Shown here piece by piece: positions 754 to 55,810 of a stretch of DNA of 64,000 nt. The DNA lies in IMG/VR virus record IMGVR_UViG_3300047476_000704, positions 130,857 through 194,856 of that record; one strand, given 5' to 3'. The DNA comes from a virus. The position numbers and the translations under genes are program-made. The notes under the pieces were generated by a model. That model searched no databases. It worked only from the letters and a program-made list of their open reading frames with translations, and had not been told where the DNA came from. Each line of letters begins with the position of its first letter. The first letter of the stretch is position 1.

Positions 754-1830
754 TTACCACTTTCTACAAGACCAATATCTTGCTTTGTGTCTTGGACCAG
801 GTTGGTCACAATTATGTCTTGCTCTAAAAGACCTTCTTGCATCTGGATTAGATTTTCTTATTCTCATTGTTTTTTCACCTTTAGATGCTGCCGATGTACC
901 ACCATGTCCAAAGTTTACTTTAACAACATTACCCGCTGGATTTTTAACATATACTTTGAATTTTTTAACATCGCCCCTCATTGGTTTACCCAATTTCACT
1001 TCTCTACCCCGATATTCAGCTTCAAATACACAATTGCAATTTGCTTCATCTAATGTATTTCTGTATGCTTTTAAGAACTGAATGAAATCTTCTATATCTT
1101 CTCTATCAACATCTAACTCATCGTAATCATCTTCCACCTCATTTACAGGTACACAATTTGGAACTTGCTTTCCACCTTTATCTTTCATTCCAACTTGCTT
1201 ATATCCAGTCCAACAATCTTCACATAATGCATTAGATTCACCTTCGTTACAAGTCTTCCAACCCCCACCCTTTGCTTTGTAGTTTTTTGCAGCCCAACCA
1301 TTAGCATATGCGGATGGATAAACATCAAATTTTGATTTAGCTGCTGCTTTTGATGCAGACCATTTTGCCGGGTCAGTTGGACAATTCTTTTCTAAAAAAA
1401 GATTTAATTTTTCGTAGATATTCATAGTTTCATTCTTTTTCTTTCCTTGGCAATGTGCTCTTTGAGAGAAACCTTTTGGATTGTTACAATCTATACTATT
1501 TTTGTATTTTTGGCTCCAATCTTCATTTTTTGGCTTTGTAGAAACATATATTGGTGTTTTTCCTTGCCCTTTACTATCCTTACCACCTCTATCTGCATCA
1601 TTTTGTGCTGCTCTTTTTCTGCGAGTTGCACTTTCTTTTTCTTTTTTACTCATTCCGGCGGCTTTTGATGCTGGAACACATTTAGCGTATCCTTTATTTT
1701 CACCAGAAGTACCACATGGTGGATGTTTTCCATCAACTTTCTTGCCAATGTTCACCCACTTTTCTTTAAACCACTTGCGCAAGTCTTCTTTTACTATATT
1801 ACGCAATTTAATATTACCATTCATATACAA
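754..1830 (-). CDS. concatemer of short basic Cys/Trp-rich phage micro-domains (probable head-associated protein); likely start 1824
   Basis: Blocks KWFKEKWVNI..CG..KCVP; WSQKYKNSIDCNNPKGFSQRAHC; KSKFDVYPSAYANGW; CWTGYKQVGMK..VPNCVP; KKFKVYVKNP..VKVNFG..RRSFRARHNC..ARYWSC; late motif at 1833-1840. Confidence 0.6.
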   Translation of the reverse strand: MYMNGNIKLRNIVKEDLRKWFKEKWVNIGKKVDGKHPPCGTSGENKGYAKCVPASKAAGMSKKEKESATRRKRAAQNDADRGGKDSKGQGKTPIYVSTKPKNEDWSQKYKNSIDCNNPKGFSQRAHCQGKKKNETMNIYEKLNLFLEKNCPTDPAKWSASKAAAKSKFDVYPSAYANGWAAKNYKAKGGGWKTCNEGESNALCEDCWTGYKQVGMKDKGGKQVPNCVPVNEVEDDYDELDVDREDIEDFIQFLKAYRNTLDEANCNCVFEAEYRGREVKLGKPMRGDVKKFKVYVKNPAGNVVKVNFGHGGTSAASKGEKTMRIRKSNPDARRSFRARHNCDQPGPRHKARYWSCRKW

Positions 1831-1859: not shown

Positions 1860-3452
1860 CTATCGTAGTAACCATCTTAAATCTTCAAATCCATCACCAA
1901 CGCCGGTTTGCATCTTATATGGGTCATCTCCATATTGACCTGGTGTGTATAAACTATCATGCGATGTTTGTACAAATCCATCCAATGAACTTCTAGTTAG
2001 ATTGATACCTTCCTGTCTTAAACGCAAGGCAGTATCTCTAATCCACAATCCCATTCCCAATGCCATCACCAAGTCATCGTTATAACCTCTTGCTGCTTCT
2101 GCTCTACCATTATTCCAAATAAATGTAAAGAACTCATCTATTGTTCTCTTACTATGGATAATAACACTCATATCTCGCATATAGTTATCTATCTTTGATA
2201 TTACCAATGGACGAGTTTTAGATGATATACTAAATCCTGGCACCATTTGTTTTTCATCTCTGTAAAACTTATTAGTAAATTGAGTATCAATATCTACATA
2301 TTTAATATCTCTATTAGACCAGAATAGATTTTTGTAGTTTCTATCTAAACATTGTTGGATTGTTGTCCAACCAATTGATGCGTTATCAATGATTAGTAAA
2401 GCATCGTTATATTCAGTTGCTAAATTGATTAGGAAATTACCAAAATCTTTTGGTTCAATCTTACCTTTGTATTCTGCAACTTGCTCACAACTTTCTGCCT
2501 CTATAACATGAGCAGTAGAGTAGTCTTCCCCATCACCCCTTGCAACGTCGGCAGTTACTATATAACTCTTTGTGTAATTTACATCTTCCCAAACCCATAA
2601 GTTATTATCAAACCCACGTCTATACATTGGTTCTTTAACATATGCTTCATTATATTTTGCTAATATTTCCGGTTGAACTACCGTTGCTCCGGAACTGATA
2701 AAGTCACAATCACATTCCTGCGCTGCTCCCTTTGGTCCCAATTGCTTTTCTTGCTCCTCTCTCCAACTTGCATCTCTTTCAGGGTGAACAGTCCAATGGA
2801 GTTTAATTGTATGGAATAAATTTTCTTTATTTTCTGCTTTTACCCAAGTTTTGTGAAACCAATTACCCATACCATTTGGTGTAGATAATGCGATACAGCT
2901 ACCACCCGTTGATAGAGTAGATTGTGCCGATGTCCAAATTTCTTCAATATAATCAATAAATGCTGCCTCATCAAATACCAATAGGGATAGGGCTTCCGAA
3001 CGTCCTGCGTCTGGTTTAGATGAAATTGCTTTGATTTGAGAACCATTCTTTAATCGTAGAGATAGTTTGTTATCTTCAACCTCTGCAACTCTTAACCATA
3101 CAGGTAAGAATTGATTCATTACTCTTACCTTTAATACCAAGTTTTTTGCAACCTCTTGTTTAGTTGCAATAACCAACACGTTATAATCTTCGTTAAAAAT
3201 CATACACCACAATGCATAACCTGCAACTAATGTAGATATACCCAATTGGCGGGATTTTAGAACAATATTAAAACGATTATCTTTGAAATCATTTAATACA
3301 TCTTCCTGAAAGTTATATAAATCAAATGGTATTTTCCCACGAACTGGGTGTTGGATTTTACAATACTTGCGCATAAAATAGACAGGGTCTTTAGCGCATT
3401 TTTTATATTGCTCTCTTACTGCATCTTGCAGTGATTTTGTTTGATTGGCCAT
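1860..3452 (-). CDS. terL: terminase large subunit (T4 gp17-like)
   Basis: LKSRQLGIST (Walker A), LLVFDEAAF (Walker B), STPNG, TADVARGDGEDYS and DDLVMA RNase H-like nuclease motifs. Confidence 0.96.
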   Translation of the reverse strand: MANQTKSLQDAVREQYKKCAKDPVYFMRKYCKIQHPVRGKIPFDLYNFQEDVLNDFKDNRFNIVLKSRQLGISTLVAGYALWCMIFNEDYNVLVIATKQEVAKNLVLKVRVMNQFLPVWLRVAEVEDNKLSLRLKNGSQIKAISSKPDAGRSEALSLLVFDEAAFIDYIEEIWTSAQSTLSTGGSCIALSTPNGMGNWFHKTWVKAENKENLFHTIKLHWTVHPERDASWREEQEKQLGPKGAAQECDCDFISSGATVVQPEILAKYNEAYVKEPMYRRGFDNNLWVWEDVNYTKSYIVTADVARGDGEDYSTAHVIEAESCEQVAEYKGKIEPKDFGNFLINLATEYNDALLIIDNASIGWTTIQQCLDRNYKNLFWSNRDIKYVDIDTQFTNKFYRDEKQMVPGFSISSKTRPLVISKIDNYMRDMSVIIHSKRTIDEFFTFIWNNGRAEAARGYNDDLVMALGMGLWIRDTALRLRQEGINLTRSSLDGFVQTSHDSLYTPGQYGDDPYKMQTGVGDGFEDLRWLLR

Positions 3453-3465
3453 AATGCCTCCCTTA

Positions 3466-4125
3466 TTATTTTAACTTTATTTTCCAATAAACACCACCAC
3501 CAATGTATGGAATTATTTGGTTTCCACCATTAGTTGATTGTTGATTGGATATACCAATATTTAATTGATATATTTTATCTGTTTTAGTTTTAAGGAGTAC
3601 ACCACCACCAAATGAATTGCCGAAGTTTACTTTATCTAAAGCGCCATTCACACCAACATATACTTGATTTTTAGGTAGTTCTTTTACTATCTTTGTATCA
3701 GTAATTGTTCTTTCTTTAATTTGTGCGTTCCACTTTCTTCCAATGATTTTGTTTTTAGAAATTGTATCGGTTAGTTCAATAGTTCCCAATCCATTATCTA
3801 AAACTAATTTATCTTTATATAAAACCTTTGAATGATAATCTTTTAGTATTCTTTCCGTATCTGCCTTTATATAAACAGGTACTTTAGTTTCACGTTCTTT
3901 TTCAACAATTGTTTCGTGGTATATATCCTTACCTTTTACATATTGTACTTTTGTATGCTCTACAATTACAGTATCAATTTTGTGTTTTAACAACTCATAG
4001 TTTTTACCATCTACATTTACGGTCTCACCTACTTTACCATCGCCGTTGGTACACTTATACCATACGATTCCGCAAGTTGCAAAAATCACAATCCATTTGA
4101 TATTATTCTGTAAAAATGTTAGCAT
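3466..4125 (-). CDS. membrane-anchored protein with C-terminal beta-strands; paralogue of 51029..51664 (possible lysis/spanin-like)
   Basis: N-terminal hydrophobic segment; shared block DT..IL..Y....V.K....L..G.G.I..TDTIS.N....RKW. Confidence 0.5.
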   Translation of the reverse strand: MLTFLQNNIKWIVIFATCGIVWYKCTNGDGKVGETVNVDGKNYELLKHKIDTVIVEHTKVQYVKGKDIYHETIVEKERETKVPVYIKADTERILKDYHSKVLYKDKLVLDNGLGTIELTDTISKNKIIGRKWNAQIKERTITDTKIVKELPKNQVYVGVNGALDKVNFGNSFGGGVLLKTKTDKIYQLNIGISNQQSTNGGNQIIPYIGGGVYWKIKLK

Positions 4126-4741
4126 AATCTTCTTTTATTATTTCCCAACTATCATCTTTTATTTTTTGATAGCCAAGTATGTTTTCTTCTGCTTCGGCTA
4201 TATCTTTTCTGATGTTAGATTTTAATTCCTCAACATCACCATCATATACCCATTTTTCAATCTTACCTTCGGCAGTTACAAATTCGTGTTCTTTATCTGC
4301 TTCTACCAATGCATCTTTGAATTTTTTAATCAAATCCGTTAGGAACTCAATTTCATACCCGGCAATCTTCCACTTTTCATATTCGTTCCAATTTCCGTTT
4401 ACTCTAAACTTTTGTTCCTTTTCAGCTAAACAATCAATACAATACCCAGTCTTACGAATAAATTGTAAGTGTTTTTCGGTTTTTTTAATTGTTTTACACC
4501 CTTTGTTTTTACAAGTTGATAAAGATTGAATATATTGCCTTACATCATCAAATTTAGATTTAACAATTTTAAATCCTTTTTGTTGTACCCAAGTTACACC
4601 ATCACTATCTGTCCATTCATCCCCAACTTGTCTATCTTGCTTTTCAGCCCGCCAACCATGTGTATTTGTACCACCATTATCATTACCAAAAGCTACATCC
4701 AAAATCTTTTTTCTGGATGGGTGCATATACTTTTTACTCAT
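4103..4741 (-). CDS. hypothetical phage protein with Cys pairs
   Basis: 212-aa ORF with CKNKGC..C..DC and RQVGDEWTDSDGVTWVQ; late motif upstream. Confidence 0.6.
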   Translation of the reverse strand: MSKKYMHPSRKKILDVAFGNDNGGTNTHGWRAEKQDRQVGDEWTDSDGVTWVQQKGFKIVKSKFDDVRQYIQSLSTCKNKGCKTIKKTEKHLQFIRKTGYCIDCLAEKEQKFRVNGNWNEYEKWKIAGYEIEFLTDLIKKFKDALVEADKEHEFVTAEGKIEKWVYDGDVEELKSNIRKDIAEAEENILGYQKIKDDSWEIIKEDYANIFTE

Positions 4742-4789: not shown

Positions 4790-7700
4790 TTAGTAAAATA
4801 TACCCAGCAACTGATTCAATGATGCAAATGCTCCAGTCATCTTAAATACATTACCTTTGTATGTAAATATAATTCCTTCATTTGGAACTATCTTATCAAA
4901 TCCACCAATTGAATTTAATCTTTCTAATTCCAATTTCATTTTTTCAATTTGAGCAGGAGTGCCTTCTGCTTTTATTTTATCTATCGTTGCATCTAATCTT
5001 TTACGGATTGCTTGTAGAGCTTCGTTTGGAGATGCGGTCAATACTGATTGCATAAATTGTAAAACTTCTGCACCCACACCTAAAAAGATTTCTTCAAATT
5101 TCATTAGGTTTTCTTTTGCAATTTTATCTTTACTTTGCTTCTCAATACCATCAGCCCATACTCTTGCCTTCTCATCACCTATCAAATTGATACGGAATGA
5201 TTTATCACCAAATGCCCATCTTTTCGTTAAACCTTCAATTTCCAATGGTGTTAAACCTTTAGAACCTTTTTGTATAAAACTTTTCCACCAAGCCTGATGA
5301 TAATCAGCTACACCAGCGTTATCTGGTAAACTAAACTCACCTTGTAATTTGGAAATCTTTGCAAGGTACTTACCTTTTTGTGAACTTAAATTTTCACTCT
5401 TTGGTAATTTTACAATAGGAGGTCCTTGTATTACATATTTAGATTGAACGTGAGCGTTTACTTGCTTAATCATTCCTGCTAATATACTTTCAGCTCCTTT
5501 AATTTGTCCTACTGCATTTCCAGCTTCATTGTATTCAACACAATTGTGGAATACCAATAGAGCCTGTCCATATGGAATAACATTTACGGATGTTGGATAG
5601 ATAACCTCTAAATTCATAAATGCTTTACCATTCATAAATATCTTATCCTTTTGCGCTTGAGATAATCCTCTAATAGCACTTTCCAAATCTTTCATAGCAA
5701 AGTTGTAAGCATCACTTAATGCTCCTCTACCAGCGAATTTTGCAGCCATACCAGATGCGTCCAAAGCACCTGCTCCCGCATTTGCTAAATGCCCTTTGTT
5801 TCTTGCTGCAATCAATCTACCATTCTTCCAACTTATTGCCAATGCTTGTCCATCGGTTTTTTCTCTAACAACACCCAATGAACCATCTAATGCTTTAGTA
5901 ACTATATTTTTTAAATCTTTAAATGTAAGATTTATATCAGTATCAAATGGATGATGCATATGTCCATAAGCACCACCTTCGGTTAGTAAATCTTCGTTTA
6001 CTTTTTTATATGGCTCGTATCCTCTTTTTTCTTTATCTTTTGTATCAGTTTGATGACCTGGTTGTTTTTTTCGTGTGTCATCAAAATCAATCGTGTCTAA
6101 TTCGGGCTCATATCCGTAATCTGGCGCATATGTTGATGTTTTGTGATGGTGATTAAAGTTATGGTCAGCCGTTCCAACTGGTTCATGGTTTTTTGTATTT
6201 ATAGCTTCAAACGCACTTTTCTTTACTTTGTACCAACCACCTCCTGGTGCTCTAAATATTCTCGCCGGTATTCTAAATGTAGAACCAATTGGTAATTTAC
6301 TGAAATACTTACTATCTATGTGTACTACCTTTGTAATAAACTCTTTTGTTTTATTATCAGCACCAACCAATTCAACTTCAATTTTTACCGGTTGTCCACC
6401 AATTTTGATTGTACCACCAAATATACCCTTTGTTATTTCGTTTAATTTACCTTCTACTTGATATACAGGTGTTGATGATTTGAAATCATCTTTTCTCATT
6501 ATAGTTTTAGCAATCAATTTATTTGCTTTAACCATAAATGGGATGTTGATACCCGTTCTCTTATCTTTTACTACAAACTCGTTGTATTGTTTGATAAACT
6601 CTAAAAACTTTTTCTTATTTTTTGCTAATCTCTTAAAGAAACCAGTTAACTCTGCTGGTGATATTTCTTTGCCATTACGAGGGTCATTTAATCTTTGAAA
6701 AAAATGGTCAGTTTCTTTTCCCAAATCAACATCTTCAGGAGATAATTGAGAGTCTGCGTATTTCTCAACCTTATCCATATCAACCTTTGCCATTTCTTTT
6801 AGCTCATTTGGAGCTTCCCAATCTTTTTCACTAATTTTACCTTCTTCTTTGTCTTTATTATATGAATCTACTGTTTTTGCCCAAACCATAGCTGGTATTG
6901 CTCCGTTCATCATATTATCGGCAAGTTGTAATGTAAACCATTCTATATAAGTTTCATCCGTAATATTTTCTGTACCTGCGTTTATTGCTGCTTTTATAGC
7001 TCCACCAAGTATGACCTCACTTGCCATATGTTCTGCTAAATGTACACTTAAATTACCCATCAAACCACCAACACCATGTCCTATTACTGCACCAACGCCA
7101 CCCGTTACAACCATACTAGCAACCGTCAATCCAACCGTTTTACCAATTGCTATCATAGCTTTCTTTTGATTTTCATCTGGCTTTTGACCTGAAAATACTG
7201 CCTTAAATCCAGCACCAGCTACATCTAACTCATGTCCCAAATGTTTAGCTTCTCTAACTACACCCTTTACAATACCCTTTGCCTTATCACCAATCCATTT
7301 TCCAAAACTACGTCTTTCTTTTGATTGTGCTTTGTGTGCTCCTCTAAAAAATTCTTTTTCTTTAGTACTCCACTTTGATATTTTTTGATTTATATAGTTT
7401 CGTAATACTTCTGGTTTATTTACCAATGTTGAAGCAACTTTCCCAACACTAGCTTTTGCTTGTGTATTTAATCCAGTATCTTTTGGTTTTTGTGCTTTTT
7501 GCTTAACTTTTTGTAATTTTTCTTTATCAGAACCACCAGCCTTTGCAACCAACATCATTGCTGCTTTGTATGCTGGATGGTCTCTCTTATAGTTTAATGC
7601 TGAACTTACTTTAATATCTTCACCCGTCTTTGGGTTCTTTACCAATTGGTTTAGGATTTGTGGTGAATAACCACTACCTTTTACCGATGCTTCTTTTACG

Positions 7701-8785
7701 ATACCCTCGCCATAACCAGTATATAATCCTAAATTAACTTGATTTACTTTATCACTTTTTGGAGATTGTTGTCCTTTCTCTATGTTACCAGGTACTTGTC
7801 TTTTATCCATTAAAGCATGGACGTGAAGAACTCTCATTGCTTCTTGTCTTGCAAACTCCGTTCTATCTAATTGTAGAGCATCTTTAATACGATATTTCTT
7901 ACCAGTTGCTGGGTCTGCGATTTCCATATTCATTATGTTATCCCAATCTACCGAATCTGGTTCGTAGTTTATATCTCCCTCAATTGTTACCAACTTATCG
8001 TAGTATTTAGGGTCTTCAAATATATGGTCTTTTGCAATCTCTGATGCTATTCGTATATCTGTGGTGTGTTCCATTTCTACATTCACACCTTTCTTAAACT
8101 CTTTCTTTATAGTATCCAAATCCACTTTATGTTTATCAGCTATTTGTGCCAATGTCATTCCTTTAGATAATCCACCTGGTATAAACTCTTTGGTTTCGTT
8201 TAATCCTTTATTCAACATTTGGAATACATCTTTATTGTATTTACCAAAAAACTTTTGGAATTGCTTTTCTTTTTCATCTGCTGATAAATTACTACGGAAC
8301 ATATTTCTCACATCGGTTGCACCAAATGAATTTGATGGAGTTTTAGAATATACATAACCCTTCGTTGAATAACCTTCCATATCCTTACCATTAGTGTATG
8401 GTTTAAAATATTGTCCACCCAATCTCATAGCATCTTTTTCTCCCAATGCTACAACTAATGCAGTATTGGTTGAGTCAAAATCACGTAGGATTTCTACGGG
8501 TTGGTATGGTGATTTTACTTGAATGAACTTTGATGGTGGGATACCAAACACTTTAACTGCAATATCACGTTTCTGATTAAAAGAAAGTGGTGATTTACCA
8601 GAGTCTTGTACATTTGATGTTGCGATATAAACATTCTTCGCTCCAAATACGGAACATAGATGTTTGTATGTCTTATAGTGTCCTGCGTGGAATGGTTGAA
8701 ATCTTCCACCATAAACTACTACCGTTTGCTTTACAGCTTCGGTTAGTAAAAAAGTTTCCACTAAATAGTTTGATAATTCATTCAT
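4790..8785 (-). CDS. 1331-aa multidomain protein: HIGH-motif cytidylyltransferase-like N-terminus, DUF5661-like block, possible BECR-type RNase-like block, C-terminal ATP-dependent ligase-like nucleotidyltransferase
   Basis: YGGRFQPFHAGH; VEMEHT..IA.EIAKDH..EDPKYY; DHFFQRLNDPR; EKTDGQ plus EGIIF..KMTG (ligase motifs I, IV, V-like). Confidence 0.7.
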   Translation of the reverse strand: MNELSNYLVETFLLTEAVKQTVVVYGGRFQPFHAGHYKTYKHLCSVFGAKNVYIATSNVQDSGKSPLSFNQKRDIAVKVFGIPPSKFIQVKSPYQPVEILRDFDSTNTALVVALGEKDAMRLGGQYFKPYTNGKDMEGYSTKGYVYSKTPSNSFGATDVRNMFRSNLSADEKEKQFQKFFGKYNKDVFQMLNKGLNETKEFIPGGLSKGMTLAQIADKHKVDLDTIKKEFKKGVNVEMEHTTDIRIASEIAKDHIFEDPKYYDKLVTIEGDINYEPDSVDWDNIMNMEIADPATGKKYRIKDALQLDRTEFARQEAMRVLHVHALMDKRQVPGNIEKGQQSPKSDKVNQVNLGLYTGYGEGIVKEASVKGSGYSPQILNQLVKNPKTGEDIKVSSALNYKRDHPAYKAAMMLVAKAGGSDKEKLQKVKQKAQKPKDTGLNTQAKASVGKVASTLVNKPEVLRNYINQKISKWSTKEKEFFRGAHKAQSKERRSFGKWIGDKAKGIVKGVVREAKHLGHELDVAGAGFKAVFSGQKPDENQKKAMIAIGKTVGLTVASMVVTGGVGAVIGHGVGGLMGNLSVHLAEHMASEVILGGAIKAAINAGTENITDETYIEWFTLQLADNMMNGAIPAMVWAKTVDSYNKDKEEGKISEKDWEAPNELKEMAKVDMDKVEKYADSQLSPEDVDLGKETDHFFQRLNDPRNGKEISPAELTGFFKRLAKNKKKFLEFIKQYNEFVVKDKRTGINIPFMVKANKLIAKTIMRKDDFKSSTPVYQVEGKLNEITKGIFGGTIKIGGQPVKIEVELVGADNKTKEFITKVVHIDSKYFSKLPIGSTFRIPARIFRAPGGGWYKVKKSAFEAINTKNHEPVGTADHNFNHHHKTSTYAPDYGYEPELDTIDFDDTRKKQPGHQTDTKDKEKRGYEPYKKVNEDLLTEGGAYGHMHHPFDTDINLTFKDLKNIVTKALDGSLGVVREKTDGQALAISWKNGRLIAARNKGHLANAGAGALDASGMAAKFAGRGALSDAYNFAMKDLESAIRGLSQAQKDKIFMNGKAFMNLEVIYPTSVNVIPYGQALLVFHNCVEYNEAGNAVGQIKGAESILAGMIKQVNAHVQSKYVIQGPPIVKLPKSENLSSQKGKYLAKISKLQGEFSLPDNAGVADYHQAWWKSFIQKGSKGLTPLEIEGLTKRWAFGDKSFRINLIGDEKARVWADGIEKQSKDKIAKENLMKFEEIFLGVGAEVLQFMQSVLTASPNEALQAIRKRLDATIDKIKAEGTPAQIEKMKLELERLNSIGGFDKIVPNEGIIFTYKGNVFKMTGAFASLNQLLGIFY

Positions 8786-8789
8786 ATAC

Positions 8790-8797
8790 TATAAATA
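8790..8797 (-). promoter_or_regulatory. putative late promoter motif TATTTATA (representative; also 1833, 4767, 11938, 16946, 32131, 35322, 48778; variants 18220, 20186, 46998; + strand copy 49093)
   Basis: Recurs in short intergenic gaps 4-38 nt upstream of start codons, mostly of structural genes. Confidence 0.6.
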
Positions 8798-8803
8798 TAT
8801 ATT

Positions 8804-11800
8804 TTATAGAGAACCACTAATTTTTGCCTCTAATTCTTCTACTCTTTTATTTAAATCTTGTACAACCTTTATCATAGATGAAAATATGGATTGATAATAT
8901 ACACCATCTACACTTCCAGAATTATCATAAATTACCCAATCTTTATAATTCAAATCATCAACTTCTTCTGCTATAAGTCCTGCGTGTAATACATCCGAAA
9001 CCTCTGTATCTTTATCTTTGAAAGATACGATGTTCAAATTTAAAATTCTTTTTGCGGATGTTAGTGATAAAGAATTTATTTCTTTTTTATATTTTCTAGA
9101 TGATGAAACCTTTTTTACATTACCACTCCCATCAACGCCCAAAGTAGTTAAACCGGATGCCGAATATAAAAAATCAAATTGTAAAGAATTATCATGTCCA
9201 CCTTGATTTTGAACATTTTGATATAATCTCAATCTTTGTGTAAACATTGAGTAATCTTGAACTTCGGAATTAAAATTATAACTTACATAACTAATACCAC
9301 CACTACTTAATCTAAAATTACCAAATGTTACACCACCACTACTAATGGTTACATCTCCAAATGTTCCACTTGCACCGGATATTGAACCGGCAAATGTTCC
9401 AGTTGCTCCGGTTATGTTTGCGCCACTTAAATTTCCACTAAAAGTACCACTAGCTCCGGTTATATCACCCTTAAAAGATGCATTTCCAGATGTATCTATA
9501 TAAAATTTTTGAGAAGAAATGTAACCACTAGAACCCAATCTTATACCTTGAGAAGTATATGAGCCATTACCACCTCCAGATGGTGAACCACCTTGAATTT
9601 CACTTGAATTGATTACCCAACCACCAACACTACCTGCTGTTTTTGCATCACCATTGGCTTGATACCCAGCGTTATTAGTTAAACTTGTAATATTGTTGCC
9701 ACTTACAATTATACTACCAGCACTAATAACCCCACTAACATCTATTCTATTTGCAGAAACAGTACCAGTAGTAATAGCATTTCCGCTAATGGATGTAACA
9801 TATCCATTTACATCTCCACCACCAATTTTAGAATTTATTGTGTCATATGTAGTACCACTTGTAATTGTAACATTACCACTTATAGTTGCAGATGCCGCGT
9901 ATAATGAACCATCAAGATATACTCTAAATGGTGCTGAATTAAATGATGCATTACCTAAATAAATACCGTTACTATCTGCTTTAAAAATACTATTACCACT
10001 ACCAATTGAAATCGTACCACCACTCAAAGCACCAGTAAATGTACCGCTTGCCGCACTTAAAGCTCCACTAAATGTTCCACCAGCTGCTGATAAGTTACCA
10101 CTAAAAGTACCACTACCATTTATGGATAAATTAGTACCATCAAAAGTAAGTTTATCCGTTAATGAAAATTTACCATCACTATCTAAATAAACTTTAGTGT
10201 TACTATTATTGTATGTACCAGTACCAATGTATATTCTACGAGTAGATGTAGTTGCATCTAATACAATTGAGTTGGGTGGCGCACCAACAGTAAACTTACC
10301 ACTTATATATCCGGCTTGTCCACCAATTACAGGTGAAAATACAGTTGTATTATCTATAAATGTACCACTAAATCCACCATTAGCTAATGTTTGTAAATTA
10401 AAAAAGGATTGTGAATAAGTAGTTGCAACACTTCTACTTACACTTTGAGATAATTGTGATACGGAACTTGATATACTACTTGTTAAACTACCACTTAAAC
10501 TATTACTACCACTAAATATATCTTCAAAATACGAACTTGAAAAATTTGTTATACTACCACTAACAGCAGATACGCTACTTGCTATCGTTGTTAAATTATC
10601 ATTACCACCCGTAAATGTTTGAGATGCCGTTACTGCTACTGGAATGTAATTATTATTTACATCAAAAAACTCAAATTTAAAGTTAAAAGTTTCGTTTGAT
10701 ATATTTGTTGGCATTGATACAATGAACGATACCTCATTTGGTGAAAATACAGTTTCTGATGATGCTCTTAAACTAATATCTTTTAAAAACCAATTACCTT
10801 GCGTTTGCTTAAAATATAATGAAGCAGTTGATTCTGAATTTGGTAAAGAAAATTGAGATACATAATTTGTTAAATTACGAGTTGGAAATAATCCATTGAT
10901 TGTATCAATTTTTCTATTACCATTTTGAGAACCACTAATGTATATTTCCAAATTACTTTGAGATGAACCTGTGTAAAATCCATCAAATGCCAATTCATAT
11001 ACAGTTATATCACTCAAATCCAATTTGGGTATGTATGTAAAATTACCATTACCATTAAGTTTAACCGAAGTTGAACCTGAAAATTGGTTTGTATCCAATG
11101 TTGCCGTTAAAGAACCACTATTCCAAAATTTAGAAAGAACTTCCGAATTAAAAAATCCAGTATCAGTTACTACACTTCCAGTTGCCTCAAAAGATTGTAA
11201 TAATTCCTTTGCTTCAATTTGTATATCTTGTATTAACTCAAAATCACTAACAGTACCTTCCGATGTACGATATACCTTTACTCTCTTTACATCACCAGCA
11301 AATGTTTCTAAACGAGATAATTTAATGTTAGCGTATGATGCAGTAATTGCAGAAGCAGATACCGATGAACCAGATACATTGTAAATTGGTTTTAATAATT
11401 CGGTAATAGTTGCTTTTGGTCTATAAAAGAAACGAACACGTGTTGTGTTTGCAAGATTTGGATTTATATTAGCTTGTCCAATGTAACGAACATTGTATTT
11501 ACCTTTCCATATTTCAGGTACTTCCGTTTTACTACCATTATTATCGTAAAACTTTAACTCACCTAAAATTGTAATAGTACAAGGACCAAATGCAGTTGAA
11601 TCTTTAGCTTGAGCTACACTATCATTTGGATAAACATAAACAGCTACTACTTTTGATATACCCTCATAGTATTCAGGAGAACCATCGGATGTTTCTGTAT
11701 AAACTACTCTACCATTTGCATCTCTAATCTGAACAATTACTTCGGTATTTGGTTCTAAATATTCCGTACCTGCAATTAAGAAAGCATTTTTACCACCTGT

Positions 11801-11917
11801 AAATGTGTCAGGTAGTTCTGTTAGATTAAAATATTGTGATGTTACACGTCTATCTTCAAGGAATACTGATGTGTATTCTAACCTCTCGTCAGGCGCAACT
11901 TTAACTTCTACTGCCAT
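8804..11917 (-). CDS. tail fibre/receptor-binding protein with C-terminal peptidase S74 intramolecular chaperone
   Basis: Gly/Ser-rich GxFSGxLSAA repeats; SSRKYKKEI...HAGLIAEEV...VYYQSIFSSMIKVVQDL coiled-coil end. Confidence 0.85.
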   Translation of the reverse strand: MAVEVKVAPDERLEYTSVFLEDRRVTSQYFNLTELPDTFTGGKNAFLIAGTEYLEPNTEVIVQIRDANGRVVYTETSDGSPEYYEGISKVVAVYVYPNDSVAQAKDSTAFGPCTITILGELKFYDNNGSKTEVPEIWKGKYNVRYIGQANINPNLANTTRVRFFYRPKATITELLKPIYNVSGSSVSASAITASYANIKLSRLETFAGDVKRVKVYRTSEGTVSDFELIQDIQIEAKELLQSFEATGSVVTDTGFFNSEVLSKFWNSGSLTATLDTNQFSGSTSVKLNGNGNFTYIPKLDLSDITVYELAFDGFYTGSSQSNLEIYISGSQNGNRKIDTINGLFPTRNLTNYVSQFSLPNSESTASLYFKQTQGNWFLKDISLRASSETVFSPNEVSFIVSMPTNISNETFNFKFEFFDVNNNYIPVAVTASQTFTGGNDNLTTIASSVSAVSGSITNFSSSYFEDIFSGSNSLSGSLTSSISSSVSQLSQSVSRSVATTYSQSFFNLQTLANGGFSGTFIDNTTVFSPVIGGQAGYISGKFTVGAPPNSIVLDATTSTRRIYIGTGTYNNSNTKVYLDSDGKFSLTDKLTFDGTNLSINGSGTFSGNLSAAGGTFSGALSAASGTFTGALSGGTISIGSGNSIFKADSNGIYLGNASFNSAPFRVYLDGSLYAASATISGNVTITSGTTYDTINSKIGGGDVNGYVTSISGNAITTGTVSANRIDVSGVISAGSIIVSGNNITSLTNNAGYQANGDAKTAGSVGGWVINSSEIQGGSPSGGGNGSYTSQGIRLGSSGYISSQKFYIDTSGNASFKGDITGASGTFSGNLSGANITGATGTFAGSISGASGTFGDVTISSGGVTFGNFRLSSGGISYVSYNFNSEVQDYSMFTQRLRLYQNVQNQGGHDNSLQFDFLYSASGLTTLGVDGSGNVKKVSSSRKYKKEINSLSLTSAKRILNLNIVSFKDKDTEVSDVLHAGLIAEEVDDLNYKDWVIYDNSGSVDGVYYQSIFSSMIKVVQDLNKRVEELEAKISGSL
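9340..10120 (-). repeat. intragenic Gly/Ser-rich repeats in tail fibre (two clusters, about 9340-9480 and 10010-10120)
   Basis: GASGTFSGNLSGA/GGTFSGALSAASGTFTGALSGG. Confidence 0.7.
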
Positions 11918-54007: not shown

Positions 54008-55159
54008 TTAATTATCTTCATTTTTAAAAGGTTTTTCATACTTGGGTTTAATCATACTCCAAATTAAATGGTCGTATGGTTTTTTATCCCACATCTTAAA
54101 CATCACCGCAGATAATTCTTTTGGGAATTGTTTAGTATATTCAGCAAACTCTTTTTTAGTTGGTTCTACTTCCTTATCATTATACTTACCATAACGGAAT
54201 CCATCATGCAACTTACCTGCTCTTTCATCTATTGAGTAGAAACTATATCGCAAGTTCATAACCACTGCTTTCACCCATTTATCAAACTCATCGGGTACTC
54301 TCTCCAAAAATGGTTCTAATGGTTCACCATTCTTCAATAGTTCCCAAATATCTTTGGTAGAAAAATTAGTAAGGATTCTATGTAATCTCACATACTCATC
54401 ACCTTTAATCTTCATTCGCATACCACCTGAAAAACGAATTACATATCCTTCGGAATCATTTGAAATCATTTTTTTCAATTTGGTATAATCATTCACACCA
54501 TCGTATCTATTAACAATATCCCATCCCTCATTCACCATCTCATCAACCTCAACCTCTTTACCGGTTTCGTTATTGTAAGCACCTAACACAACCAATTTTT
54601 CCTCATCACCATAATCTACAACGATTCGATTTTCAGGATAAATGATTTCAACTAAATAAGTGTAGCCAGGTATTAAAGCAGTTTTGCTTAATTTATCTAA
54701 TAACTCCTTACCTTTGATAGCTTGTTCGGATGTAAATGAACCACGAGTTGCCATATGCCACTCACCTTCGTAGTGGAATATAATACCCAACGAACCATCC
54801 ATCTTTTCAAATACTTCAAAGGGCTCATTTGGAATGACACTACGCATTTCCCAACCACCGCATTCTTCAGGGTGAGCACAGTTAATCATACCTGATTTTC
54901 TACACCCTTCACAATGTGCATACTTATCATCTTTAATTTCTTCGTAGTTAAAGAACTTTGGGAATGGTTTGGCAATAACATTACCTTCGTTATCCAATAC
55001 TAAACCTCTACAAGCCAATGTATATCTATCCCAATTACCATCGTATTGTGTGGTGCGGGAATAGTTGTATATAGACAACGGAAGTGTAGGGTGATTTTGT
55101 TTAATCACCTTACCCGTATCAATATAATGTTTATGTAAAAGTTCTAAATTGTATTTCAT
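54008..55159 (-). CDS. RNA ligase (T4 Rnl1-like) with Cys-rich insertion
   Basis: CRGLV..PFPKFFN; EKMDGSLG; EII; EGYVI; KIK..YVRLH. Confidence 0.9.
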   Translation of the reverse strand: MKYNLELLHKHYIDTGKVIKQNHPTLPLSIYNYSRTTQYDGNWDRYTLACRGLVLDNEGNVIAKPFPKFFNYEEIKDDKYAHCEGCRKSGMINCAHPEECGGWEMRSVIPNEPFEVFEKMDGSLGIIFHYEGEWHMATRGSFTSEQAIKGKELLDKLSKTALIPGYTYLVEIIYPENRIVVDYGDEEKLVVLGAYNNETGKEVEVDEMVNEGWDIVNRYDGVNDYTKLKKMISNDSEGYVIRFSGGMRMKIKGDEYVRLHRILTNFSTKDIWELLKNGEPLEPFLERVPDEFDKWVKAVVMNLRYSFYSIDERAGKLHDGFRYGKYNDKEVEPTKKEFAEYTKQFPKELSAVMFKMWDKKPYDHLIWSMIKPKYEKPFKNEDN

Positions 55160-55426: not shown

Positions 55427-55810
55427 TTATAATTTTACTTCAAAACGATTTCTCATATTACCCAAAGATGCATCGGGTACATTGTGGATACTCTTACCTT
55501 CGTGTCGGTTCTCTACGATTACTGATGTTACTTTGTACCCGTAGGTTTTAGCCAACTCATAGTAATCTTCCATCTCCCACTCTTGCGTAAATGTGTTTGA
55601 TACTATTACCTTTGGCTTCTCTCTAACCATAAAAGATTCGCATTGTTCTTTACACCAACGATGTGCTTCTTTGATTTTATTAAAATCAAACTTATACTCA
55701 CCATCTACCATAAAGTACATATCTGCCTCACAACGGAAACCACCAATCAATTCAGCGAATGTTGATTTTCCACTACCCGGCAATCCTCTCAATAAGATTA
55801 ACTCTTTCAT
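55427..55810 (-). CDS. polynucleotide kinase-like P-loop kinase (AAA_33)
   Basis: LLRGLPGSGKST, EAD.YF, VSNTF, HNVP. Confidence 0.88.
   Translation of the reverse strand: MKELILLRGLPGSGKSTFAELIGGFRCEADMYFMVDGEYKFDFNKIKEAHRWCKEQCESFMVREKPKVIVSNTFTQEWEMEDYYELAKTYGYKVTSVIVENRHEGKSIHNVPDASLGNMRNRFEVKL

What the first reader, a model, noticed from the sequence alone, without database searches (positions are those of the whole stretch)
4790..8785. 1331-aa 'polyvalent' late protein: HIGH nucleotidyltransferase, possible RNase-like domain and ligase-like domain
Seen: a HIGH motif (about 8675-8710), a DUF5661-like block (about 7975-8180), an NPKTG..KVSSAL block, a hydrophobic Gly-rich helix, a DHFFQRLNDPR block (HxxxRxxxR, as in BECR/RelE-like RNases) and a C-terminal KxDG..EG..K ligase-like domain (about 4790-5980). 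Domains start after LLTE|A, GLNE|T, IVKE|A, ELKE|M, KLNE|I and LLTE|G. A late motif sits 4 nt upstream. Inference: a head-packaged, protease-processed cassette of nucleic-acid or nucleotide-modifying enzymes delivered at infection (host takeover or counter-defence).
Basis: partly seen in the sequence, partly recalled or inferred. Interest (0 to 1): 0.72.

Follow-up and report, generated by a model that had tools for sequence, protein, structure and literature searches.

The report
Glu-delimited head-cargo enzyme polyprotein

Summary
The gene lies in a 195-kb T4-like phage that has a gp21-type head protease.

**N-terminal domain.** A NadM-type NMN-adenylyltransferase-like HIGH enzyme.

**C-terminal 395 residues.** These fold confidently (pLDDT 90) as a ligase-type nucleotidyltransferase, closest to RNA ligases. 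KxDG, motif III, EG and K are invariant. No Pfam, NCBIfam or PHROG model matches.

**Distribution of the C-domain.**
- More than 1700 clusters at 50% identity, always at the C-terminus.
- In 80 of 80 IMG/VR loci it sits directly upstream of a conserved small gene and TerL.
- In 44 of 51 complete genes it follows the same NTase.

**Junctions.** Stand-alone copies of the modules start with the phage's MIKLKxLLxE tag. The tag's Glu is in register with the polyprotein junctions (LLxE|GGAYGH; Glu in 88% of 139 junctions).

**Sister polyproteins** carry CCA-adding, HD and P-loop kinase modules.

**Virion evidence.** A remote NTase homologue with the same leader was detected in cyanophage virions.

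**Not supported.**
- The "RelE-like RNase" reading is not supported.
- "Late" is only suggested by an enriched upstream motif.

The scan had already read this same stretch in another window (e1-5812149).

Verdict: a new variant of T4-style packaged, protease-processed cargo. Interest 0.68.

The parts
4790..8785 (-). Whole 1331-aa ORF (P0001), including the stop codon
   Evidence: It lies 18 nt downstream of a tail-fibre-like gene (8804-11917). It lies upstream of p212 (4103-4741), p219 (3466-4125) and TerL (1860-3452).
8790..8798 (-). ATATTTATA promoter-like motif ending 5 nt before the ATG
   Evidence: one search gives the sequence. TATTTAT occurs upstream of 30 genes against 2.5 expected; the gene list is. 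Function and timing are not shown.
8738..8785 (-). Leader, residues 1-16 (MNELSNYLVE|TFLLTE|A), with two hydrophobic-x-Glu sites
   Evidence: The leader is conserved as MNELSxFLVEsILLE in NTase-first homologues. It aligns with MKNFSSFLTE|A of the virion-detected S-CREM2 ORF154.
8195..8737 (-). NadM-type NMNAT-like HIGH nucleotidyltransferase, residues 17-197 (GRFQPFHAGH; GATDVR); ends at GLNE197|T
   Evidence: PF01467 scores 23.9 bits against a cut-off of 21 for the domain alone. TIGR00125 scores 1.4e-6. phrog_3041 scores 6.5e-12. The profile against the PDB gives 2qjt 1.3e-6, 1f9a and 1ej2.
7691..8194 (-). DUF5661 module plus extension, residues 198-365 (DUF5661 core 214-269 = 7979-8146); ends at IVKE365|A
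   Evidence: Pfam PF18905 E 1.2e-13. The same domain occurs in 25 of 80 related loci.
6794..7690 (-). Basic region with two Gly-zipper hydrophobic helices, residues 366-664 (NPKTG..KVSSAL; GGVGAVIGHGVGGLMG); ends at ELKE664|M
   Evidence: The family hits are only weak: TMP_2 at 0.034 and Gly-zipper at 7.8. It is present in 7 of 80 related loci. Function unknown; membrane insertion is an inference.
6437..6793 (-). 115-aa HFFxRLNDPR module (phrog_14518/phrog_23027), residues 665-783; ends at KLNE783|I
   Evidence: 332 homologues were found, stand-alone or fused to DUF5661, GNAT and others. Stand-alone copies start MIKLKTLVKE|MA.ADL..VEKYAD. Fold not resolved.
5978..6436 (-). Small beta-barrel-like module (784-850) plus a His/Asp/Lys-rich linker (851-936) ending VNE|DLLTE936|G
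   Evidence: The model has pLDDT about 70-75 for strands 788-845. It gives only generic SH3/Sm/Tudor-like matches at Z of 4.7 or less. The module recurs after LNE| in 14 of 80 loci.
4793..5977 (-). Ligase-type nucleotidyltransferase domain with a helical insert of about 170 aa, residues 937-1331; catalytic-type Lys976 (codon 5858-5860)
   Evidence: AF2 pLDDT 90.0, pTM 0.85. VIA: NgrRnl Z 8.7, T4 Rnl1 8.6, Trl1 8.4, T4 Rnl2 8.2. Invariant residues are K56 D58 G59 R75 E140 H160 E383 G384 K395 in domain numbering, which is protein residue minus 920. Motif III/IIIa aligns to the phage's own Rnl1.

Best explanation
**What it is.**
- The gene encodes a modular cargo polyprotein of the phage head.
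- It is made with the structural and packaging genes.
- Its conserved N-terminal leader takes it into the prohead core.
- There the gp21-type protease cuts it after Glu at hydrophobic-x-Glu junctions.

**Expected products.**
- A NadM-like adenylyltransferase of about 20 kDa.
- A DUF5661 module.
- A basic, membrane-active piece.
- A 115-aa module of unknown fold.
- A small beta module.
- A ligase-type enzyme of about 44 kDa.

**What the pieces do.**
- They travel in the capsid and enter the cell with the DNA.
- The C-terminal enzyme is an ATP- (or NAD+-) using lysine-adenylylating end-joining enzyme that works on RNA.
- Together with the other modules it gives the phage pre-made RNA-end repair or nucleotide-level counter-defence before any phage gene is expressed.

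**Shown.** The ORF, the domain families and fold, the motif conservation, the synteny, the fusion and fission of modules at tag or junction Glu, and the presence of the protease gene.

**Inferred.** Packaging, cleavage, injection, RNA as the substrate, and the substrate of the NTase.
For: **(1) T4-like setting.**
- gp23 MCP and a gp21 protease are present in this genome.
- The protease is present in 11 of 11 large related records and in phages Mel-JY01 and immuto.
- T4 gp21 cuts after Glu, and internal proteins use a capsid targeting sequence (PMC5694885; PMC3012670).

**(2) The tag.**
- At least six other ORFs of this genome start MIKLKxLLxE. Four of them lie between the scaffold and protease genes.
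- The MCP has KQLLDE|T about where T4 gp23 has FLTE|A.

**(3) Tag and junction are in register.**
- Stand-alone C-domains start MI(K/R)LKxILNE-VLLKE|GGAYGH.
- Stand-alone 115-aa modules start MIKLKTLVKE|MA.ADL.
- In split loci, adjacent genes each have their own tag.
- Junction Glu is kept in 88%, 73% and 70% of junctions for the three modules.
- The LLTE|GG stretch is disordered in the model (pLDDT below 50 for domain residues 1-20).

**(4) Fixed position.** The order [..C-domain]-p212-(p219)-TerL holds in 80 of 80 loci.

**(5) Ligase fold and motifs**.

**(6) RNA theme.** Sister polyproteins carry PolyA_pol/CCA-adding, HD and AAA_33/Zeta-like kinase modules.

**(7) Virion precedent.**
- NMNAT-like 'cytidyltransferases' have been detected in cyanomyovirus virion proteomes (PMC10665884).
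- S-CREM2 ORF154 matches our NTase profile from residue 1, leader included (hhalign probability 92.6%, E 4.5e-7).
Against: - There are no proteomic, cleavage or activity data for this protein or any close homologue.
- The S-CREM2 authors themselves caution that the protein may be a contaminant of the virion preparation.
- The leader differs from the MIKLK tag.
- [LIVM]xE sites are not enriched overall (15 observed, about 19 expected by my rough estimate). Some lie inside folded domains; VVRE975 sits just before the catalytic Lys.
- Structural Z scores of 7-8.7 are middling, and Foldseek against the PDB gives only E of about 0.01.
- Motif V has one Lys (KxT) instead of KxK.
- The phage already has a canonical Rnl1 and a Pnk-like kinase elsewhere, so a second RNA ligase needs a reason.
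- This particular protein carries no kinase, HD or CCA module.
- The genome has no NadV. The surveyed NadM phages all have one (PMC9503650), so NAD+ synthesis by the NTase is doubtful.
Confidence: 0.5

Rival explanations
1. It is a cytoplasmic multi-domain enzyme that is neither packaged nor cut. It is made late and works as one chain, for example repairing RNA or adjusting nucleotide pools during late infection. The hydrophobic-x-Glu junctions are fossils of the tagged genes from which it was assembled.
For: - There is no direct virion evidence.
- E-sites are not enriched overall.
- Fusion of tagged genes would leave such remnants.
- In S-PM2 the related NTase gene sits among replication genes, not head genes.
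Against: - Junction Glu and the P3/P4 Leu are kept in 88-96% of 139 distinct junctions, whatever lies upstream. That argues for ongoing selection.
- The junction is disordered.
- The position next to terS/TerL is strict.
- A leader-bearing homologue was detected in virions.
Confidence: 0.2
2. It is packaged and processed cargo, but the enzymes do not repair RNA.
- The ligase-like domain might seal or adenylylate DNA ends or nicks of the incoming genome, or AMPylate a protein.
- The NadM-like domain might make NAD+ or another dinucleotide against NAD+-depleting defences.
For: - DNA ligases also match the model (Z 5-7.1).
- Two family members weakly hit the NAD-dependent ligase adenylation model (E 0.034).
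- The NTase is closest to NMNATs.
- Virion NMNAT-like proteins are discussed in the literature as NAD+ modulators.
Against: - RNA ligases rank above DNA ligases in both structure searches.
- Motif III resembles Rnl1.
- Sister proteins carry CCA-adding, HD and kinase modules.
- There is no NadV partner.
Confidence: 0.2
3. It has a structural or assembly role. It would be a prohead-core or packaging accessory protein whose conserved C-domain acts with the terminase during DNA packaging and is not delivered to the next host.
For: - It is invariably adjacent to p212 and TerL.
- It is a core gene of the clade, with at least 578 IMG/VR loci.
Against: - The catalytic motifs of a ligase-type NTase are invariant.
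- The N-terminal cargo is hypervariable and made of enzyme modules (GNAT, cupin, ParB-like, kinase, CCA-adding). That is typical of effectors, not of assembly parts.
Confidence: 0.07

Closest known systems
Phage T4 head-packaged proteins Alt and IPI-III (capsid targeting sequence, gp21 processing)
   Same: - A T4-like phage with a gp21-type protease.
- A short N-terminal leader ending in hydrophobic-x-Glu.
- The tag is shared by unrelated cargo proteins.
- An enzyme cargo is presumed to be injected (Alt is an injected enzyme, and is cut at both ends; PMC5694885).
   Different: - Here many modules are concatenated in one chain with internal cut-type sites.
- The cargo is an NMNAT-like and a ligase-like enzyme, not an ADP-ribosyltransferase or a nuclease inhibitor.
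- The leader sequences (MNELSxFLVE.., MIKLKxLLxE) differ from T4's MKTYQEFIAE (quoted from my own knowledge).
- Packaging is not shown.
Polyvalent proteins of phages and conjugative elements (Iyer et al. 2017, PMC5512222)
   Same: - A large multi-domain protein with a shuffled repertoire of effector-type modules.
- It is encoded with virion and packaging genes.
- Relatives include GNAT and ParB-like modules.
   Different: - No MuF, MPTase, ART or PBECR hallmark domain was found.
- Ligase-type and HIGH-type nucleotidyltransferases did not come up in my term search of that paper.
- Processing would be by the prohead protease at Glu, not by an embedded metallopeptidase.
- There is an invariant C-terminal domain and a fixed genomic slot.
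Rnl1/Trl1-type ATP-dependent RNA ligases (T4 RnlA, fungal Trl1 ligase domain, Naegleria Rnl5)
   Same: - A predicted adenylyltransferase fold.
- KxDG, motif III E(V/I)IYP....V(I)xY, motif IV EG and a motif V Lys, with IV-to-V spacing of 12 residues.
- Association in sister proteins with kinase and phosphoesterase 'healing' modules.
   Different: - No match to PF09511, PF09414 or any other Pfam model.
- A helical domain of about 170 aa is inserted between motifs IIIa and IV, instead of a C-terminal domain after motif V.
- Motif V is KxT.
- A conserved GGAYGHMxHPFD segment precedes motif I.
NadM / archaeal-type NMN adenylyltransferases (F. tularensis NadM-Nudix 2qjt, M. jannaschii 1f9a); virion 'cytidyltransferases' of cyanomyoviruses
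   Same: - GRFQPFHxGH and SGT(D/E)(V/I)R motifs.
- The best profile matches in the PDB.
- The S-CREM2 ORF154 homologue was detected in virions and has the same type of leader.
   Different: - Only the first 65 or so residues align well.
- No Nudix domain, and no NadV in the genome.
- The substrate is unknown.
- It is fused to other modules.

Membership tests
Covalent nucleotidyltransferases (ATP/NAD+ ligases, capping enzymes) | Motif I KxDG with the nucleotidyl-accepting Lys | tested here: met
   REKTDG at 974-979. K56, D58 and G59 are invariant in 41 homologues of 37-91% identity.
Covalent nucleotidyltransferases (ATP/NAD+ ligases, capping enzymes) | Motifs III, IIIa, IV and V in order | tested here: met
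   E140 (NLEVIY), F159/H160, E383-G384 and K395 are invariant or nearly so. Motif V is KxT rather than KxK. The assignment of motifs to the ligase motifs is by sequence pattern and strand order, not by a residue-level superposition.
Covalent nucleotidyltransferases (ATP/NAD+ ligases, capping enzymes) | Adenylyltransferase (ligase) fold | tested here: met
   The AF2 model has pLDDT 90. The 12 best of 48,161 chains are all ligase NTase domains, Z 6.9-8.7 over 164-207 residues. The Foldseek top hits are all ligases but weak, at E of about 0.01. The Z scores are middling.
Covalent nucleotidyltransferases (ATP/NAD+ ligases, capping enzymes) | Formation of a covalent Lys-NMP intermediate | not testable with these tools
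   Needs an adenylylation assay.
Rnl1 family (Pfam PF09511 RNA_lig_T4_1) | Match to the family model | tested here: not met
   PF09511 searched over the whole genome at E up to 10 hits only the canonical Rnl1 at window 54008-55159. There is no Pfam hit for the C-domain or for 41 homologues. Only motif III/IIIa aligns (hhalign E 0.0026, probability 11.6%).
Rnl1 family (Pfam PF09511 RNA_lig_T4_1) | Helical C-terminal domain after motif V | tested here: not met
   In the model the helical domain (about 205-378 in domain numbering) lies before motif IV, and only about 16 residues follow motif V.
NadM/archaeal NMN adenylyltransferase | HIGH-type (H/T)xGH motif in a GRFQPFHxGH context, plus the SxTxxR motif | tested here: met
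   GGRFQPFHAGH at 26-36. GATDVR at 155-160, with T157 and R160 invariant in 36 homologues. The profile matches 2qjt at 1.3e-6 and 1f9a at 2.5e-5.
NadM/archaeal NMN adenylyltransferase | Works with NadV in phages (every NadM phage has NadV, PMC9503650); Nudix fusion | tested here: not met
   There is no PF04095 match in the complete 195-kb genome. No Nudix domain was found in the ORF.
NadM/archaeal NMN adenylyltransferase | NMN + ATP -> NAD+ activity | not testable with these tools
   Needs an enzyme assay.
T4-type CTS-targeted, gp21-processed head proteins | gp21-type (Peptidase_S77) prohead protease in the genome | tested here: met
   PF03420 at E 2.6e-27. It is also present in 11 of 11 related large records and in 2 of 2 cultured relatives.
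T4-type CTS-targeted, gp21-processed head proteins | Short N-terminal leader ending in hydrophobic-x-Glu, shared with other head cargo | tested here: met
   NYLVE10|T and FLLTE16|A. The leader is conserved in homologues and in the virion-detected S-CREM2 ORF154. It is not identical to the genome's MIKLK tag.
T4-type CTS-targeted, gp21-processed head proteins | Present in virions and cleaved after Glu | not testable with these tools
   The only precedent is indirect (PMC10665884).
Polyvalent proteins (Iyer et al. 2017) | Several effector-type domains in one polypeptide encoded with virion or packaging genes | tested here: met
   At least six modules. There is synteny with TerL in 80 of 80 loci.
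Polyvalent proteins (Iyer et al. 2017) | Hallmark domains (MuF, MPTase, ART, PBECR and others) | tested here: inconclusive
   None was found by Pfam, PHROGs or NCBIfam in this protein. A ParB-like DGHHR module is seen in a relative. PADLOC was not searched.
BECR/RelE-like RNases (for residues 665-783) | N-terminal helix followed by a 4-5-stranded sheet, with catalytic His/Arg and Ser/Thr | tested here: inconclusive
   The model has low confidence (pLDDT 60). It is predicted to be four or five helices plus one hairpin. The fold search hardly tested this part of the model, so it neither finds nor excludes a BECR fold. His34 of the module is invariant.
DUF5661 (PF18905) | Match above the gathering score | tested here: met
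   51.6 bits against a cut-off of 27, E 1.2e-13, residues 214-269.

The most novel reading that the evidence does not exclude
The near-obligate pairing of a NadM-like adenylyltransferase with this new ligase-type enzyme (44 of 51 complete genes; adjacent genes when split) reflects one new capsid-delivered chemistry on RNA ends. Two examples:
- An NAD+-using RNA ligase whose NMN product is recycled in cis.
- Direct NAD-capping or 5'-adenylylation of RNA by the HIGH enzyme, feeding the ligase.
Probability: 0.12. Interest if true: 0.85.

Novelty: new variant of a known kind. Interest (0 to 1): 0.68.

Why it matters
- **Scale.** It would extend T4's "load into the head, cut, inject" logic from single small proteins to whole shuffled enzyme cassettes. 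These occur in a very large, mostly uncultured clade of aquatic T4-like phages, with more than 1700 clusters at 50% identity.
- **A readable cargo marker.** The hydrophobic-x-Glu junction would be a simple sequence rule for finding head cargo.
- **A new enzyme family.** The work defines an abundant ligase-type enzyme family with no Pfam, NCBIfam or PHROG model.
- **Timing of counter-defence.** Pre-made RNA-end repair delivered with the genome would be a counter to tRNA-cleaving defences that acts before phage transcription.
- **Testability.** Microcystis phage Mel-JY01 and Flavobacterium phage immuto are cultured relatives that carry parts of the system, which makes it directly testable.

Tried and rejected
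**Family searches on the C-domain.**
- Pfam, NCBIfam and PHROGs gave nothing.
- A PDB sequence search with the C-domain profile found no ligase. It found only an odd match to the eukaryotic eS6 C-terminal region.
- The Atlas hint of DUF6267 was not reproduced by Pfam.

**The HFFxRLNDPR module.**
- The RelE/BECR reading is not supported. The model is of low confidence and mostly helical, and the fold search hardly tested this part.
- The Atlas gave only unnamed viral clusters.

**NAD+ and RNA-repair partners.**
- NAD+ salvage (NARP2-like): rejected as the simple reading, because the genome has no NadV and no other PF01467 gene.
- Tpt1/KptA-linked repair: there is no PF01885.
- A CCA-adding enzyme in this genome: none.

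**Other checks.**
- Overall enrichment of [LIVM]xE sites: absent.
- S-PM2 p143 as a C-domain homologue: hhalign gives no match, and the A1 profile finds nothing in S-PM2.
- Literature searches for DUF5661, DUF6267, Mel-JY01 and 'cytitidyltransferase' returned no papers.
- A search for phiM12 virion proteomics gave nothing usable.

Full report
**Observation.** Window 4790-8785 (-) is one uninterrupted 1331-aa ORF.
- The window is the last 64 kb of a 194,856-bp IMG/VR phage record judged complete.
- The record encodes a T4-type major capsid protein (PF07068, 3.8e-77) and a gp21-type prohead protease (PF03420, 2.6e-27).
- The gene lies 18 nt downstream of a tail-fibre-like gene. It lies upstream of two small genes (p212, p219), the large terminase and a further tagged gene.
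- Of my 221 crude gene calls, 216 are on this strand.

**Module map, by residue.**
- 1-16: leader MNELSNYLVE|TFLLTE|A.
- 17-197: HIGH nucleotidyltransferase.
- 198-365: DUF5661 (E 1.2e-13) plus an extension.
- 366-664: basic region with two Gly-zipper hydrophobic helices.
- 665-783: a 115-aa module (phrog_14518, phrog_23027).
- 784-936: a small beta module plus a charged linker.
- 937-1331: the conserved C-domain.

**N-terminal enzyme.**
- A profile of 36 homologous domains (A4) keeps GRFQPFHxGH and ISGTDVR invariant.
- In the PDB it matches only NMN/NaMN and phosphopantetheine adenylyltransferases.
- The best matches are the NadM/archaeal type: F. tularensis NadM-Nudix 2qjt at 1.3e-6, M. jannaschii 1f9a, and 1ej2.
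- It is the only PF01467 domain in the genome, and there is no NadV.
- A survey of viral NAD+ systems states that every NadM phage also has NadV (PMC9503650).
- The fold family is therefore clear. The substrate is not.

**C-terminal enzyme: fold and motifs.**
- No Pfam, NCBIfam or PHROG model matches it or its homologues.
- An AF2 model built from 41 homologues is confident (pLDDT 90.0, pTM 0.85).
- An exhaustive structural comparison puts only ligase adenylyltransferase domains in the first 12 places: Naegleria RNA ligase Z 8.7 over 184 residues, T4 Rnl1 8.6 over 191, Trl1 8.4 over 204, T4 Rnl2 8.2. DNA ligases score 5-7.1 and a capping enzyme 4.9.
- Foldseek gives the same families weakly.
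- In the viral structure library, once its own family is passed, the list consists mostly of annotated phage and giant-virus RNA ligases.
- Invariant residues fit motifs I (KxDG), III, IIIa, IV (EG) and V (K).
- The phage's own canonical Rnl1 (window 54008-55159; PF09511 9.5e-19) aligns to the C-domain only over motif III/IIIa: NLEVIYPTSVNVIPYG against LVEIIYPENRIVVDYG.
- It departs from known ligases in three ways. A helical domain of about 170 aa is inserted before motif IV. Motif V is KxT. A conserved GGAYGHMxHPFD segment precedes motif I.

**C-terminal enzyme: distribution.**
- The family is very large: 1748 clusters at 50% identity, 517 of them at E of 1e-30 or better. In 147 of the 150 best-listed proteins, which range from 277 to 1930 aa, the domain ends at the C-terminus; two of the exceptions are truncated matches and one (P0364, 999 aa) carries it at residues 308-720.
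- There are at least 578 IMG/VR loci.
- It is nearly absent from cultured phages. tblastn found the C-domain only in Microcystis phage Mel-JY01 and two uncultured huge phages.

**Synteny and pairing.**
- In 80 of 80 best IMG/VR loci the order is [..C-domain]-p212-(p219)-TerL. A homologue of the tagged downstream gene is present in 67 of them.
- Of 51 complete genes, 44 begin with the same NTase and end with the C-domain (782-1933 aa). Five are stand-alone C-domains of 391-414 aa. Two begin with an HD domain.
- When the gene is split, the NTase-containing gene sits 10 nt upstream of the C-domain gene.

**Evidence for head loading and cutting. All of it is comparative.**
1. At least six other ORFs of this genome begin MIKLKxLLxE. 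Four of them lie between the scaffold and protease genes.
2. Most stand-alone C-domains begin MI(K/R)LKxILNE-VLLKE|GGAYGH. Stand-alone 115-aa modules begin MIKLKTLVKE|MA.ADL..VEKYAD. Our junctions DLLTE|GGAYGH and ELKE|MAKVDMDKVEKYAD are in exact register with the tag's Glu.
3. Across distinct internal junctions, Glu precedes the C-domain in 88% of 139, with L/I at P3 in 96% and at P4 in about 86%. Glu also precedes the 115-aa module in 73% and the beta module in 70%.
4. The LLTE|GG segment is disordered in the model.
5. The MCP propeptide has KQLLDE|T 20 residues before the conserved LVRRIF motif. T4 gp23 has FLTE|A 32 residues before MVRRAI, but the global alignment is gapped across this stretch and does not place the two sites in the same columns. 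T4 gp24 starts MAKINELLRE. That T4 is cleaved at these sites is my own knowledge. That gp21 cuts after Glu, and that internal proteins use a CTS, is in PMC5694885 and PMC3012670.
6. The gp21-type protease is present in 11 of 11 large related records and in both cultured relatives.
7. [quoted passage not shown] The authors note the caveat of possible contamination (PMC10665884). S-CREM2 ORF154 matches our NTase profile from residue 1, including the leader: MKNFSSFLTE|A against MNELSNYLVE|T (probability 92.6%, E 4.5e-7).

Against this: E-sites are not enriched overall (15 observed, about 19 expected by my rough estimate), some lie inside folded domains, and nothing has been measured.

**Evidence for an RNA theme.**
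- Sister polyproteins in the same slot carry RNA-end enzymes.
- P0287 has the NTase, DUF5661, an AAA_33 kinase, HD, PolyA_pol head plus RNA-binding domains, and the C-domain.
- L088 and L073 are HD + PolyA_pol + C-domain. L088 was confirmed by Pfam; L073 was assigned by phmmer and its identical N-terminus.
- L079, L052, P0261, P0273 and P0325 carry PolyA_pol. P0317, P0304 and P0307 carry Zeta/AAA_33 kinases.
- Among 121 long members, at least 7 have the CCA-type module, at least 5 have HD and at least 4 have the P0317-type kinase. P0287 itself was not in that set.
- Other relatives carry GNAT, cupin or ParB-like modules. The cargo is therefore not only RNA-directed.
- The protein in this window has none of the healing modules.

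**What is not resolved.**
- The 115-aa HFFxRLNDPR module has an invariant His. Its model is poor (pLDDT 60), mostly helical, and shows no RNase-like match.
- DUF5661 and the basic Gly-zipper region have no assignable function.
- 'Late' expression rests on a motif, ATATTTATA, ending 5 nt before the ATG. The motif is enriched upstream of about 30 genes, including several neighbours in this structural/packaging region. It is not T4's TATAAATA in sense orientation.

**Verdict.**
- The best reading (confidence 0.5) is a capsid-loaded, Glu-processed enzyme cassette whose constant part is a new RNA-ligase-like enzyme paired with a NadM-like adenylyltransferase.
- It is a new variant of known kinds: T4 Alt/IP cargo, and polyvalent proteins.

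Noticed in passing
window 54008-55159 (-) and about 55508-55801 (-): A canonical Rnl1-type RNA ligase (PF09511 9.5e-19) has an AAA_33 kinase-like ORF about 350 nt away (PF13671 2.3e-12). This looks like a T4-style Pnk/Rnl1 repair pair, separate from the polyprotein.
   Followed up: partly
genome 50340-51146 (-), outside the window: A 268-aa ORF starts MSKHLLNE|AVDEL, is preceded by the TATTTATA motif, and matches AAA_33 (6.8e-10). It may be a tagged, packaged P-loop kinase.
   Followed up: no
window 4103-4741 (-) (p212) and 3466-4125 (-) (p219): p212 has no family match. In two relatives its homologue has Cys-x2-Cys pairs. It lies between the C-domain gene and TerL in 80 of 80 related loci; p219 does so in 34 of 80. 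It sits where a small terminase subunit would be expected.
   Followed up: partly
window about 5130-5430 (-), residues about 1119-1218 of the ORF: The profile of the C-domain's helical insert matches the C-terminal region of eukaryotic ribosomal protein eS6 (residues 116-215) at E 1.7e-5 with no composition bias flagged. This may be a shared RNA-binding helical segment, or chance.
   Followed up: no
whole genome; window 8790-8798 as an example: ATATTTATA/TATTTAT is enriched within 45 nt upstream of about 30 genes (2.5 expected). It is usually 14-38 nt before the ATG, but only 4-5 nt before three genes including this one. That would imply a nearly leaderless mRNA if it is a -10-type element.
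   Followed up: partly
L090:7861-9990 (+): In the split form, the NTase gene also carries the 115-aa module and a ParB/Srx-like DGHHR module. ParB-like domains are a frequent component of published polyvalent proteins (stated from my own knowledge).
   Followed up: no
window 754-1830 (-): The gene downstream of TerL, whose N-terminus reads ..IKLRNIVKE, has homologues after TerL in 67 of 80 related loci. It is the subject of another note in this scan.
   Followed up: no
L094:7633-10562 (S-PM2 103632-106561): In cyanophage S-PM2 the related NTase (profile E 4.5e-6) is the C-terminal part of 'cytidyltransferase' p142. It overlaps the start of a 586-aa hypothetical gene, among replication genes rather than head genes.
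   Followed up: partly
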